IMG/VR virus record: IMGVR_UViG_2657245068_000005
Reading direction: 5' to 3' (one strand)
DNA from: a virus
Taxonomy: Duplodnaviria; Heunggongvirae; Uroviricota; Caudoviricetes
Length of the DNA stretch: 4,597 nt
Under the pieces are notes generated by a model. That model worked only from the letters and a program-made list of their open reading frames with translations, searched no databases and was not told the origin of the DNA. The number at the start of each line of letters is the position of its first letter. The stretch's first letter is position 1. Positions 2,623 through 2,932 of this stretch are shown here, piece after piece. Both the position numbers and the translations under genes were made by a program.

Positions 2623-2697
2623 TGGAGCGGGCAGCGGGAATCGAACCCGCATCATCAGCTTGGAAGGCTGAGGTAATAGCCATTATACGATGCCCGC
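2623..2697 (-). tRNA. tRNA-Gly (anticodon UCC)
   Basis: The reverse complement is GCGGGCATCGTATAATGGCTATTACCTCAGCCTTCCAAGCTGATGATGCGGGTTCGATTCCCGCTGCCCGCTCCA. It has a 7-bp acceptor stem, a GTTCGATTCC T-arm, the anticodon loop CUUCCAA and an encoded CCA. It looks essentially identical to host glyT from memory. Confidence 0.9.
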
Positions 2698-2700
2698 ATA

Positions 2701-2776
2701 TGGTGCCGACTACCGGAATCGAACTGGTGACCTACTGATTACAAGTCAGTTGCTCTACCTACTGAGCCAAGTCGGC
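2701..2776 (-). tRNA. tRNA-Thr (anticodon UGU)
   Basis: The reverse complement is GCCGACTTGGCTCAGTAGGTAGAGCAACTGACTTGTAATCAGTAGGTCACCAGTTCGATTCCGGTAGTCGGCACCA. The anticodon loop is CUUGUAA. It is very close to host thrU from memory. Confidence 0.85.
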
Positions 2777-2778
2777 AC

Positions 2779-2855
2779 TGGACCGCCACCGGGGACTCGA
2801 ACCTCGCACACTCAACTTAAAGGGTTGACGCTCTTTCCTGATGAGCTAGTGGCGG
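2779..2855 (-). tRNA. tRNA of uncertain identity (anticodon loop CCUUUAA; UUU/Lys-like with non-canonical C33)
   Basis: The reverse complement is CCGCCACTAGCTCATCAGGAAAGAGCGTCAACCCTTTAAGTTGAGTGTGCGAGGTTCGAGTCCCCGGTGGCGGTCCA. It has a perfect 7-bp acceptor stem starting C1-G72, a TTCGAGT T-loop and a 5-bp anticodon stem, but C rather than U precedes the anticodon and the T-stem has one mismatch. Confidence 0.6.
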
Positions 2856-2856
2856 T

Positions 2857-2932
2857 TGGTGGCCCTTGCTGGATTTGAACCAGCGACCTGGCGATTATGA
2901 GTCGCTCGCTCTCACCACTGAGCTAAAGGGCC
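2857..2932 (-). tRNA. tRNA-Ile2-like (anticodon CAU, ileX/ileZ-type, probable lysidine tRNA reading AUA)
   Basis: The reverse complement is GGCCCTTTAGCTCAGTGGTGAGAGCGAGCGACTCATAATCGCCAGGTCGCTGGTTCAAATCCAGCAAGGGCCACCA. The anticodon loop is CUCAUAA. The overall sequence resembles E. coli ileX far more than elongator tRNA-Met, judged from memory. Confidence 0.8.

What the first reader, a model, noticed from the sequence alone, without database searches (positions are those of the whole stretch)
2623..2932. Compact four-tRNA array in the late operon, including one non-canonical tRNA
Four tRNA genes are packed with 1-3 nt spacers between the Q-like gene and the holin. The Gly(UCC) and Thr(UGU) copies look nearly identical to host glyT and thrU from memory, and the first is an ileX-like CAU tRNA expected to read the rare AUA codon. 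The third has a perfect acceptor stem and T-loop but an anticodon loop CCUUUAA (C at position 33, anticodon apparently UUU) and a T-stem mismatch. It could be a degenerate copy, or a functional phage tRNA with unusual decoding. The array's near-identity to host genes also makes it a possible recombination target.
Basis: partly seen in the sequence, partly recalled or inferred. Interest (0 to 1): 0.5.

Follow-up and report, generated by a model that had tools for sequence, protein, structure and literature searches.

The report
Prophage tRNA cassette with anticodon-switched tRNA
Four tightly packed tRNA genes sit between the late-gene activator and the lysis genes of an E. coli lambda-like prophage; three are ordinary helpers for rare codons, and the fourth is a phage arginine tRNA re-made to carry a lysine anticodon with a rare C at position 33, which might escape bacterial enzymes that cut lysine tRNA.

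Summary
Four tRNA genes lie on the minus strand at 2932-2623 with 1, 2 and 3 nt spacers, between a Q antiterminator and a P21-type holin. Transcription order is Ile2(CAU), odd tRNA(UUU), Thr(UGU), Gly(UCC).

The array is a common variant of the Stx-phage ileZ-argN-argO cassette.
- The whole array is in 539 of 5,426 complete E. coli genomes.
- tRNA1 is 100% identical to ileZ.
- Gly is identical to host glyT (75/75), and Thr matches thrU at 75/76.

The odd tRNA is not a decayed lysine tRNA. It is a homologue of phage argN (anticodon UCG or UCU) whose loop changed from CUUCKAA to CCUUUAA, with compensatory stem changes.
- No other register gives a canonical loop.
- C33 is in every UUU-type copy sampled; none has another base there.
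- It scores like Stx argN in the Rfam tRNA model (44.4 v 43.0 bits).
- It varies about twice as much as its neighbours, and clearly degenerate copies exist.

Related phage late genes have about twice the host's AUA, ACA, GGA and GGG, but not AAA. Codon supply therefore explains three tRNAs and not the fourth.

My best inference is untested: the odd tRNA is a spare Lys tRNA lacking the published PARIS AriB and P2-Old determinants. A neutral relic remains a strong rival.

The parts
3131..3820 (-). Q antitermination protein gene, upstream of the array
   Evidence: Pfam PF06323 Phage_antiter_Q, E=3.7e-91
3114..3142 (-). Promoter-like site (TTGCAA-17-TATATT), the candidate late promoter pR'
   Evidence: Consensus scan only. 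Its position just downstream of Q and upstream of the terminator hairpin fits a lambda-type pR'-tR' arrangement; this is an inference.
3034..3063 (-). GC-rich hairpin CCCGCC-CACA-AGCGGG followed by a U-run on the minus strand, the candidate tR' terminator. The array lies downstream of it.
   Evidence: The terminator scan reports the hairpin on the + strand. The minus-strand reading comes from the sequence itself. Weak isrK/isrJ-like Rfam matches overlap it, at 22.5-23 bits, below their gathering scores.
2942..2970 (-). Promoter-like block of the cassette (TTGCAA-17-TATTAT), ending 10 nt before tRNA1
   Evidence: Found by the consensus scan. In 8 copies the sequence upstream of this block falls into several unrelated groups, and homology begins at the -35-like TTGC. 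TTGC and most of the -10 hexamer are conserved, including in the Stx2 phage Nil2.
2857..2932 (-). tRNA-Ile2 (anticodon CAU), identical to ileZ
   Evidence: ARAGORN. Rfam 72.5 bits. 76/76 identical to Nil2 ileZ. 68/76 identical to K-12 ileX. PGAP calls it tRNA-Ile.
2779..2855 (-). Odd tRNA on the argN scaffold, with anticodon UUU, C33, U73, C1-G72 and A51.C63
   Evidence: ARAGORN calls Lys(ttt). Rfam 44.4 bits. Homology to argN with compensatory stem changes. PGAP calls it tRNA-Lys.
2701..2776 (-). tRNA-Thr(UGU), a copy of thrU with A9G
   Evidence: The modal prophage copy is 100% identical to thrU, and G9 is a minority variant, 6 of 97 copies.
2623..2697 (-). tRNA-Gly(UCC), identical to glyT
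1897..2112 (-). Class II (P21-type) holin, the first lysis gene downstream of the array
   Evidence: Pfam PF04971, E=1.4e-35

Best explanation
The array is a mobile tRNA cassette of lambdoid prophages. It is a variant of the ileZ-argN-argO cassette of Shiga-toxin phages, in the form ileZ, an argN-derived UUU tRNA, a thrU copy and a glyT copy. It sits downstream of Q, pR' and tR' and upstream of the lysis genes, so Q-antiterminated late transcription should read through it. It also carries its own sigma-70-like promoter block.

What is shown: the identities of the four genes, their homologies, their position and their distribution.

What is inferred for three of them: Ile2(CAU), Thr(UGU) and Gly(UCC) add to single-copy, low-abundance host tRNAs. 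These read AUA, ACA and GGA/GGG, codons that are about twice as frequent in this phage type as in the host.

What is inferred for the fourth:
- It is a still-folded tRNA. Its anticodon moved from Arg (UCU or UCG) to UUU by C35U (plus G36U if the ancestor was UCG), together with U33C.
- It is most likely charged by LysRS, whose main determinants are the UUU anticodon bases, and it then reads AAA and AAG.
- Because it is built on an Arg scaffold, it lacks the features that Lys-tRNA-directed defence nucleases use. It has G39-U40-U41 and C16 where PARIS AriB needs U39-C40|A41 and U16. It has no paired CNG motif for P2 Old. It has C33 at the phosphodiester that PrrC cuts.
- It could therefore keep Lys codons readable when the host tRNA-Lys is destroyed.
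For: Cassette identity and spread:
- tRNA1 is identical to ileZ.
- The odd tRNA aligns without gaps to argN.
- The whole array is in 539 of 5,426 E. coli genomes and in induced phages.
- The same scaffold carries UCG, UCU or UUU.
- In 120 IMG/VR loci the architectures are 91 Met-Lys-Thr-Gly, 10 Met-Lys-Arg(tct) and 6 Met-Arg(tcg)-Arg(tct). The UUU gene therefore occupies the argN slot.

Fold of the odd tRNA:
- On 24 distinct scaffold members the cloverleaf has 95.6% of cells paired, against 29-53% when the partners are slid.
- Four pairs change on both sides: 7-66, 27-43, 30-40 and 51-63.
- It scores 44.4 bits in the Rfam tRNA model, like Stx argN at 43.0.
- C33-UUU-AA is present in every UUU-type copy sampled. 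No copy with another base at 33 was found in IMG/VR or in metagenomes, against 38 metagenome contigs with C33.
- The modal copy sits in at least 7 different flanking contexts.

Own promoter: a conserved block lies at the edge of the homology between copies.

Codon usage in a related phage's late genes against a 50 kb K-12 sample, per 1000 codons:
- ATA 5.2 v 2.4
- ACA 10.9 v 5.4
- GGA 14.3 v 6.0
- GGG 20.1 v 9.2
- AAA 32.5 v 33.9

Literature:
[quoted passage not shown] U39A abolishes cleavage, A41C inhibits it and U16C impairs it (PMC12409363).
- P2 Old needs paired CNG motifs in the anticodon stem (PMC12445682).
- PrrC cuts 3' of U33 (PMC2610378).
- The natural C33 elongator tRNA-Leu(GAG) of yeast works almost normally (PMC13492127).
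- 36-UAA-38, the t6A determinant, is present, and the bacterial enzyme makes no base-specific contact with U33 (PMC13276492).
Against: - Nothing here shows that the odd tRNA is expressed, processed, aminoacylated or resistant to any nuclease.
- U73 replaces A73, which from my memory of published identity studies contributes to LysRS recognition.
- U33 is nearly universal in tRNAs.
- The 'resistance' features are simply inherited from the Arg scaffold, so they are not evidence of selection by nucleases.
- The odd tRNA carries 16 distinct substitutions in the 50 nt left free by my search pattern. Its neighbours carry 10-15 in 75-76 nt.
- Copies with U8C, G18A, a D-stem deletion or a deleted anticodon arm exist. 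The two types rescored, from strains 042 and 95NR1, fall below the Rfam gathering score.
- Within the UUU group, stem changes that keep pairing outnumber those that break it only 8 to 3 (my count on A6).
- C33 being fixed can be explained by a single origin.
- The annotators of phage ON470583 did not call the gene.
- The cassette's Thr keeps the host anticodon arm. Extra host ThrU gave little protection against P2 Old (PMC12445682). A counter-defence role therefore cannot be claimed for the whole array.
Confidence: 0.42

Rival explanations
1. The odd tRNA is a neutral or weakly functional relic. An argN or argO-like Arg tRNA suffered C35U and U33C, lost its Arg function, and is carried along because it lies inside a useful, self-promoted cassette. 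On this reading only ileZ, Thr and Gly matter.
For: - It varies about twice as much per site as its neighbours.
- Frequent copies carry damage at universally conserved positions (U8C, G18A), a D-stem deletion or a deleted anticodon arm. PGAP does not annotate the copies I examined, and the two types rescored fall below the Rfam threshold.
- It has C33 and U73, and some annotators skip it.
- Lys codons are not enriched in the phage, while Arg codons AGA, AGG and CGG are enriched and now lack a cassette tRNA.
Against: - The modal copy keeps a full cloverleaf and all the tertiary-interaction nucleotides.
- It scores as well as the argN of active Stx phages.
- Changes since the Arg ancestor are compensatory: G30-C40 to A30-U40 and U7-A66 to C7-G66.
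- It stays intact in at least 7 different phage backgrounds and in induced phages.
- No substitution was seen at positions 33-38.
- The neighbouring tRNAs also show damaging variants in prophages.
Confidence: 0.35
2. The odd tRNA is functional but not as a simple Lys decoder. One possibility is a decoy that binds Lys-tRNA-directed nucleases and is not cut. Another is a modulator of decoding at Lys codons, for example of the -1 frameshift at the A AAA AAG site that produces the tail-chaperone fusion in phages of this type.
For: - C33 lies at the PrrC scissile bond (PMC2610378).
- The AriB authors raise competition by overexpressed viral tRNAs as a possibility (PMC12409363).
- In the related phage vB_EcoS-689R5 the tail chaperone gene ends GTT AAA AAA AAG TAG, and the next chaperone ORF continues in the -1 frame (L143 30224-30245).
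Against: This is speculative throughout. No association between the tRNA and the slippery site was tested. The scaffold differs from tRNA-Lys at the positions AriB reads, which argues against tight decoy binding.
Confidence: 0.1
3. The whole four-tRNA array is primarily a counter-defence set against tRNA-cleaving immune systems rather than a codon-supply set.
For: Lys(UUU) and Thr(UGU) are the two prime AriB targets. ThrU is the prime target of P2 Old, which excludes lambda-type phages. glyT and thrU both carry the paired CNG motif with A37, which can be read directly.
Against: - Modal Thr and Gly copies are 100% identical to the host genes, so they should be cut just as the host tRNAs are.
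- Host ThrU overexpression gave little protection against P2 Old.
- The codons these tRNAs read are about twice as frequent in the phage as in the host, which the simpler supply model explains.
Confidence: 0.1

Closest known systems
ileZ-argN-argO tRNA cassette of Stx-converting lambdoid phages (for example 933W, Nil2, 2851)
   Same: - It occupies the same place, downstream of Q and tR' and upstream of the late genes.
- ileZ is 100% identical.
- The same promoter-like block lies upstream.
- The second gene is homologous to argN, and shares C1-G72, U73 and A51.C63 with it.
   Different: - The argN slot carries UUU with C33 instead of UCG.
- argO is replaced by copies of host thrU and glyT.
- Lysis genes follow the array rather than stx.
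Nuclease-resistant phage tRNAs, such as T5 tRNA-Lys(UUU) against PARIS AriB and phage tRNA-Thr(UGU) against P2 Old
   Same: It has the same anticodon as the main nuclease target. It differs from host tRNA-Lys at the positions shown to matter for AriB (39, 41, 16), and it lacks the CNG pair that Old uses (sequence).
   Different: - It is carried by a temperate lambdoid phage in a 4-gene cassette, not in a large array of a virulent phage.
- It derives from an Arg scaffold by anticodon switching.
- It has C33 and U73.
- Its resistance and its charging are untested.
Natural C33 elongator tRNA: S. cerevisiae tRNA-Leu(GAG)
   Same: An elongator tRNA with C instead of the near-universal U33. C33 barely affects its function (PMC13492127).
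   Different: It is eukaryotic and chromosomal, it has a different anticodon, and it has no link to phage or defence.
Phage T4 tRNA set (from memory: Arg-UCU, Ile-CAU, Thr-UGU, Gly-UCC, Ser, Pro, Leu, Gln)
   Same: The sets overlap in Ile(CAU), Thr(UGU), Gly(UCC) and, in sister cassettes, Arg(UCU).
   Different: T4 has no tRNA-Lys and instead repairs PrrC-cut tRNA-Lys. The genes are not homologous copies of the host genes. This comparison rests on my own knowledge and was not tested here.

Membership tests
tRNA (Rfam RF00005), odd gene 2779-2855 | Score at or above the family's gathering score, with a full-length match | tested here: met
   44.4 bits against a gathering score of 29, model positions 1-71 of 71, E=2.5e-7. 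ARAGORN also calls it.
tRNA (Rfam RF00005), odd gene 2779-2855 | Cloverleaf supported by covariation among homologues | tested here: met
   95.6% of cells paired. Four pairs show changes on both sides. Slid controls give 29-53% paired.
tRNA (Rfam RF00005), odd gene 2779-2855 | Canonical 7-nt anticodon loop with U33 | tested here: not met
   The loop is CCUUUAA, with C33. No alternative register exists. C33 is present in every UUU-type copy sampled.
tRNA-Lys(UUU), a LysRS substrate | Anticodon U34-U35-U36 | tested here: met
tRNA-Lys(UUU), a LysRS substrate | Discriminator A73 (an E. coli LysRS identity element, from my memory of published identity studies) | tested here: not met
   The discriminator is U73, at window position 2782.
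tRNA-Lys(UUU), a LysRS substrate | Aminoacylation with lysine | not testable with these tools
   This needs in vitro charging or acid-gel and mass-spectrometry analysis.
tRNA-Lys(UUU), a LysRS substrate | Sequence homology to bacterial or phage tRNA-Lys genes | tested here: not met
   Its nearest relatives are Arg tRNAs: NGF1 (UCU) at 89.6% and argN (UCG) at 84-88%. The Lys tRNAs with the canonical loop found in IMG/VR are on unrelated scaffolds.
Stx-phage ileZ-argN-argO cassette | ileZ first, directly downstream of Q and tR' | tested here: met
   76/76 identity to ileZ, with Q upstream
Stx-phage ileZ-argN-argO cassette | Second gene is argN, an Arg tRNA with anticodon UCG | tested here: not met
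   The scaffold is homologous but the anticodon is UUU.
Stx-phage ileZ-argN-argO cassette | Third gene is argO (UCU) | tested here: not met
   Thr(UGU) and Gly(UCC) take its place. An ileZ-UUU-argO intermediate form exists elsewhere.
Nuclease-resistant phage tRNA (T5 tRNA-Lys type) | Same anticodon as the host tRNA that the nuclease targets | tested here: met
   The anticodon is UUU. AriB, PrrC and RloC target tRNA-Lys(UUU).
Nuclease-resistant phage tRNA (T5 tRNA-Lys type) | Changed nuclease determinants | tested here: met
   G39-U40-U41 and C16 stand where AriB needs U39-C40|A41 and U16. C28-A29-A30 and U40-U41-G42 stand where Old uses paired CNG motifs (sequence; rules). This is by sequence only.
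Nuclease-resistant phage tRNA (T5 tRNA-Lys type) | Shown to resist cleavage and to rescue infection | not testable with these tools
   This needs cleavage assays and plating assays.
tRNA-Ile2 (lysidine CAU), gene 2857-2932 | CAU anticodon on an ileX/ileZ-type body rather than a Met body | tested here: met
   68/76 identity to K-12 ileX, including the same anticodon loop and four of the five anticodon-stem pairs. Identical to ileZ. PGAP calls it tRNA-Ile. Modification by TilS is not testable here.

The most novel reading that the evidence does not exclude
Temperate lambdoid phages carry a purpose-built spare lysine tRNA. An arginine-tRNA scaffold was re-anticodoned to UUU, with C33 at the PrrC cut site and without the AriB and Old determinants. 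Under this reading it is expressed from the cassette promoter and from the late transcript, and it keeps AAA and AAG codons readable when PARIS, PrrC, RloC or P2 Old destroy host tRNA-Lys. This would extend tRNA-based counter-defence from large virulent phages to about 10% of E. coli genomes. It would also show anticodon switching between amino-acid families as a route to nuclease-proof tRNAs.
Probability: 0.25. Interest if true: 0.7.

Novelty: new variant of a known kind. Interest (0 to 1): 0.45.

Why it matters
Phage tRNAs have recently been recast as counter-measures to tRNA-cleaving immunity, in work on PARIS, retron Eco7 and P2 Old. That work concerns virulent phages with large tRNA sets. 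Here a small cassette in common E. coli prophages holds a UUU-anticodon tRNA built on an Arg scaffold with a fixed C33. It sits next to Thr(UGU), the other prime target of AriB and the prime target of P2 Old, the classic excluder of lambda.

If the odd tRNA is charged and resists cleavage, it would be a natural example of anticodon switching creating an immune-evasive tRNA in temperate phages. It would also give a simple genetic handle for studying U33 and C33 in bacterial decoding.

If it is a relic, the array is an ordinary rare-codon cassette. In that case the 'tRNA-Lys' calls in hundreds of RefSeq genomes should be read with caution.

Tried and rejected
1. Alternative registers for the anticodon arm. 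Only UCAAC/GUUGA with a 7-nt loop pairs 5 of 5, and the other registers give 4 of 5 with loops of 6, 8 or 9 nt. I rejected them.

2. Plain MFE folding of the odd tRNA. It does not return the cloverleaf and its z-score is -1.46. Unmodified tRNA sequences often behave this way, so I used covariation instead.

3. A search for a U33 (canonical-loop) version of the scaffold. IMG/VR gave 3 hits, all unrelated Lys tRNAs. A search for any non-C at position 33 gave 0 hits in IMG/VR and in metagenomes.

4. Literature searches for ileZ, argN and argO. The first returned only unrelated word matches, and the two whole-word searches returned nothing. One search call failed on a term that was too short. I found no paper describing the UUU/C33 gene. 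This is absence in the held library only.

5. The supplement of the P2 Old paper, to see whether its 245-tRNA library held this sequence. No supplement is held.

6. A shifted anticodon (UUA, an ochre suppressor) or a 4-base reading caused by C33. I considered these and found nothing in the sequence to support them, so I did not pursue them.

7. Counter-defence as the role of the Thr and Gly copies. I rejected it as the primary reading, because the modal copies equal the host genes and host ThrU overexpression does not protect against Old.

8. The Rfam 'Plastid-ycf2' matches on the + strand. They are below their gathering score and are the antisense of the tRNAs, so they are artefacts.

9. One fuzzy-matching script timed out. 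I replaced it with an ungapped comparison.

10. tRNAscan-SE itself could not be run. As proxies I used PGAP annotation of identical copies and Infernal scores.
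Full report
**1. The observation**

ARAGORN finds four tRNA genes, all on the minus strand:

| Gene | Coordinates | Rfam tRNA score |
|---|---|---|
| CAT | 2932-2857 | 72.5 bits |
| TTT | 2855-2779 | 44.4 bits |
| Thr-TGT | 2776-2701 | 72.5 bits |
| Gly-TCC | 2697-2623 | 64.9 bits |

The Rfam gathering score is 29. The spacers are 1, 2 and 3 nt, and every gene encodes CCA.

Pfam identifies the flanking genes on the same strand:
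- Q antiterminator, 3131-3820
- P21-type holin, 1897-2112
- lysozyme, 456-989
- Rz, 55-474
- RusA and DUF968 upstream of Q

Between Q and the array lie a promoter-like site (3142-3114) and a GC hairpin with a U-run (about 3063-3034). This is the layout of a lambda-type pR'-tR', so the array is in the Q-dependent late unit.

One detail is not: the odd tRNA is second in transcription order.

**2. The three conventional genes**

- tRNA1 is 76/76 identical to ileZ of Stx2 phage Nil2 and 68/76 identical to K-12 ileX. PGAP names it tRNA-Ile.
- Gly is 75/75 identical to K-12 glyT.
- Thr is 75/76 identical to thrU, differing by A9G.

In a sample of IMG/VR prophage copies the modal Thr and Gly are 100% identical to the host genes. 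The window's G9 is a minority variant, in 6 of 97 copies. One Gly variant in 12-13 copies carries a change on both sides of one acceptor-stem pair (C-G to U-A).

**3. The odd gene**

Its canonical numbering reads as follows:
- acceptor stem C1-G72 to C7-G66, U8, A9
- D stem GCUC/GAGC, D loop A14 U15 C16 A17 G18 G19 A20 A20a A21
- anticodon stem U27 C A A C31 paired with G39 U U G A43
- anticodon loop C32 C33 U34 U35 U36 A37 A38
- variable region GUGUG
- T stem CGAGG/CCCCG with A51.C63, T loop UUCGAGU
- discriminator U73, then CCA

No other register gives a paired 5-bp stem with a 7-nt loop.

It aligns without gaps to Stx-phage argN, whose loop is CUUCGAA (anticodon UCG). It aligns even better, at 89.6%, to a UCU-anticodon member in strain NGF1, whose loop is CUUCUAA. 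Further members with UCG or UCU occur in E. coli, Shigella, Escherichia sp., Serratia and MAGs.

Across 24 distinct members the cloverleaf is 95.6% paired, against 29-53% for slid controls. Four pairs change on both sides:
- 7-66: C-G / U-A
- 27-43: U-A / C-G / G-C
- 30-40: A-U / G-C
- 51-63: G-C / A-U, with A.C as the commonest state

The T-stem mismatch, C1-G72 and U73 are therefore inherited from argN. So is the modest score:

| Scaffold member | Rfam tRNA score |
|---|---|
| L130 (UCG) | 58.0 bits |
| NGF1 (UCU) | 52.1 bits |
| Serratia (UCU) | 49.3 bits |
| window (UUU) | 44.4 bits |
| Nil2 argN (UCG) | 43.0 bits |

The gene is an Arg-scaffold tRNA whose anticodon was switched. From a UCU ancestor this takes two transitions, C35U and U33C.

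**4. Distribution**

- The 441-nt array region is at least 80% covered in 539 of 5,426 complete E. coli genomes.
- Some member of the scaffold is in 2,132 genomes.
- The full array is in phages vB_EcoS-689R5, vB_EcoM-606R7 and PhiR47_1. PPompW phages match over the ileZ-plus-UUU half only, and phi467 over the Thr-plus-Gly half only.

In 120 IMG/VR loci the architectures were as follows:

| Architecture | Loci |
|---|---|
| Met-Lys-Thr-Gly | 91 |
| Met-Lys-Arg(tct) | 10 |
| Met-Arg(tcg)-Arg(tct) | 6 |
| Met-Thr-Gly (odd gene not called) | 5 |
| partial arrays (Lys-Thr-Gly 4, Met-Lys-Thr 4) | 8 |

The UUU gene thus sits in the argN slot, and an ileZ-UUU-argO intermediate exists. The modal UUU sequence occurs in at least 7 unrelated upstream and at least 7 unrelated downstream contexts.

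Homology between contexts begins at a -35-like TTGC. The block TTGCAA-17-TATTAT (2970-2942) ends 10 nt before tRNA1. TTGC and most of the -10 hexamer are conserved in 8 copies, including Stx2 phage Nil2. I infer that the cassette has its own promoter and may also be expressed in lysogens.

**5. Is the odd tRNA under constraint?**

Evidence for constraint:
- The fold is intact, and the changes since the Arg ancestors are compensatory.
- It persists in many phage backgrounds.
- All 14 distinct UUU-type variants keep C33-UUU-A37-A38, while position 32 varies among C, U and A.
- Non-C33 versions: 0 in IMG/VR and 0 in metagenome contigs, against 38 metagenome contigs with C33.

Evidence against constraint:
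- In 89 ungapped arrays the odd tRNA has 16 distinct substitutions in the 50 nt not fixed by my search pattern. Ile has 10 in 76 nt, Thr 15 in 76 and Gly 10 in 75.
- Common variants carry U8C with two C-to-U stem changes (the 042 type), a D-stem deletion (the 95NR1 and PPompW type), G18A, or loss of the anticodon arm. PGAP leaves the copies I examined unannotated, and the 042 and 95NR1 types fall below the Rfam threshold.
- Within the UUU group I count 8 stem changes that keep pairing and 3 that break it, which is not decisive.
- Fixation of C33 is also what a single origin would give.

The evidence is therefore compatible with a functional gene under weaker constraint than its neighbours, and equally with a slowly decaying passenger.

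**6. What would it do?**

I compared codon usage in the related phage vB_EcoS-689R5 with a 50 kb K-12 sample, per 1000 codons.

| Codon | Phage late genes | Host sample |
|---|---|---|
| ATA | 5.2 | 2.4 |
| ACA | 10.9 | 5.4 |
| GGA | 14.3 | 6.0 |
| GGG | 20.1 | 9.2 |
| AAA | 32.5 | 33.9 |
| AAG | 15.5 | 12.0 |
| AGA | 6.1 | 1.2 |
| AGG | 4.2 | 0.7 |
| CGG | 13.9 | 3.5 |

Codon supply fits Ile2, Thr and Gly. It does not explain a Lys-anticodon tRNA. E. coli has several tRNA-Lys genes (from my own knowledge). It also does not explain the loss of the Arg genes.

The recent literature gives a different frame:
[quoted passage not shown] U39A abolishes cleavage, A41C inhibits it and U16C impairs it (PMC12409363).
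[quoted passage not shown] It prefers ThrU and also cuts Lys (PMC12445682).
- PrrC cuts 3' of U33 (PMC2610378).

The odd tRNA has G39-U40-U41, C16, C28-A29-A30 with U40-U41-G42, and C33. Stx argN still has CAG/CUG. By sequence the odd tRNA should therefore escape all of these nucleases.

Two further points bear on whether it can work as a tRNA. C33 need not block decoding, since yeast tRNA-Leu(GAG) is naturally C33 and works almost normally (PMC13492127). The t6A determinant 36-UAA-38 is present, and the bacterial enzyme does not read U33 (PMC13276492).

Charging by LysRS is plausible, because its main determinants are the anticodon bases. U73 is unfavourable. Both statements come from my memory of identity studies and were not tested here.

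The cassette's Thr keeps the host anticodon arm, and extra host ThrU gave little protection against Old. Any counter-defence role would therefore rest on the odd tRNA alone.

**7. Verdict**

The array is a real, common and already annotated prophage tRNA cassette of the ileZ-argN-argO family. Its unusual member is an anticodon-switched argN derivative with a fixed C33. I found no description of this gene in the held literature.

My estimates for the odd tRNA are:
- about 0.4 that it is a working, nuclease-insensitive Lys decoder
- about 0.35 that it is a relic
- the remainder spread over other roles

Expression, charging and cleavage assays would settle the question.

Noticed in passing
window 1874-1883 and 2392-2401, with repeats 2185-2391 / 2403-2609 and 1688-1873 / 1897-2082: Two runs of 10 N are each flanked by near-duplicate sequence, at 98% and 89% identity. 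The second pair gives a second holin-like ORF (1688-1897, 69 aa) beside the holin at 1897-2112. This looks like a scaffolding artefact that joined two alleles or prophage copies in tandem, rather than a real duplication. The related locus L001 has a single copy.
   Followed up: partly
window 1055-1684 (-): A 209-aa ORF sits inside the lysis cassette between the holin and the lysozyme. It has no Pfam match and matches only PHROG families of unknown function (phrog_1085, E=1.2e-73). Related phages have a YdfR-family gene, or no gene, at this spot. It could be an inserted accessory gene ('moron').
   Followed up: partly
window 3038-3111 (-): Weak Rfam matches to the Salmonella prophage sRNAs isrK and isrJ (22.5-23 bits, below their gathering scores) overlap the hairpin and U-run just downstream of Q. 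This is probably the short pR'-tR' leader transcript.
   Followed up: no
L143 (phage vB_EcoS-689R5) 30222-30245: The tail assembly chaperone gene ends GTT AAA AAA AAG TAG, and the next chaperone ORF continues in the -1 frame. This is a tandem-lysine A AAA AAG slippery site that depends on tRNA-Lys(UUU). Whether the cassette's UUU tRNA affects it is unknown.
   Followed up: no
L006 601-677 (E. coli 042), L005 601-676 (95NR1), L009 601-666 (MLI104K2): These are degenerate copies of the odd tRNA. They carry U8C with C4U and C11U, a 1-nt D-stem deletion, or a deleted anticodon arm. PGAP leaves them unannotated, and the first two fall below the Rfam threshold.
   Followed up: yes
L002 1632-1708 (Stx2 phage Nil2 argN) and other argN copies: Stx-phage argN (UCG) carries an A51.C63 T-stem mismatch, U73 and the paired CAG/CUG motif in its anticodon stem. 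By the published rule that motif would make it a P2 Old substrate. Other family members have G51-C63 or A51-U63.
   Followed up: partly
window 2625-2932 (+): Rfam 'Plastid-ycf2 5'UTR' matches (28-36 bits against a gathering score of 65.7) lie on the strand opposite three of the tRNAs. They are antisense-of-tRNA artefacts.
   Followed up: yes
IMG/VR loci, Gly gene of the cassette: A Gly(UCC) variant in 12-13 copies has C6U together with G66A, a change on both sides of one acceptor-stem pair (C-G to U-A). The cassette's glyT copy therefore evolves as a working tRNA.
   Followed up: partly
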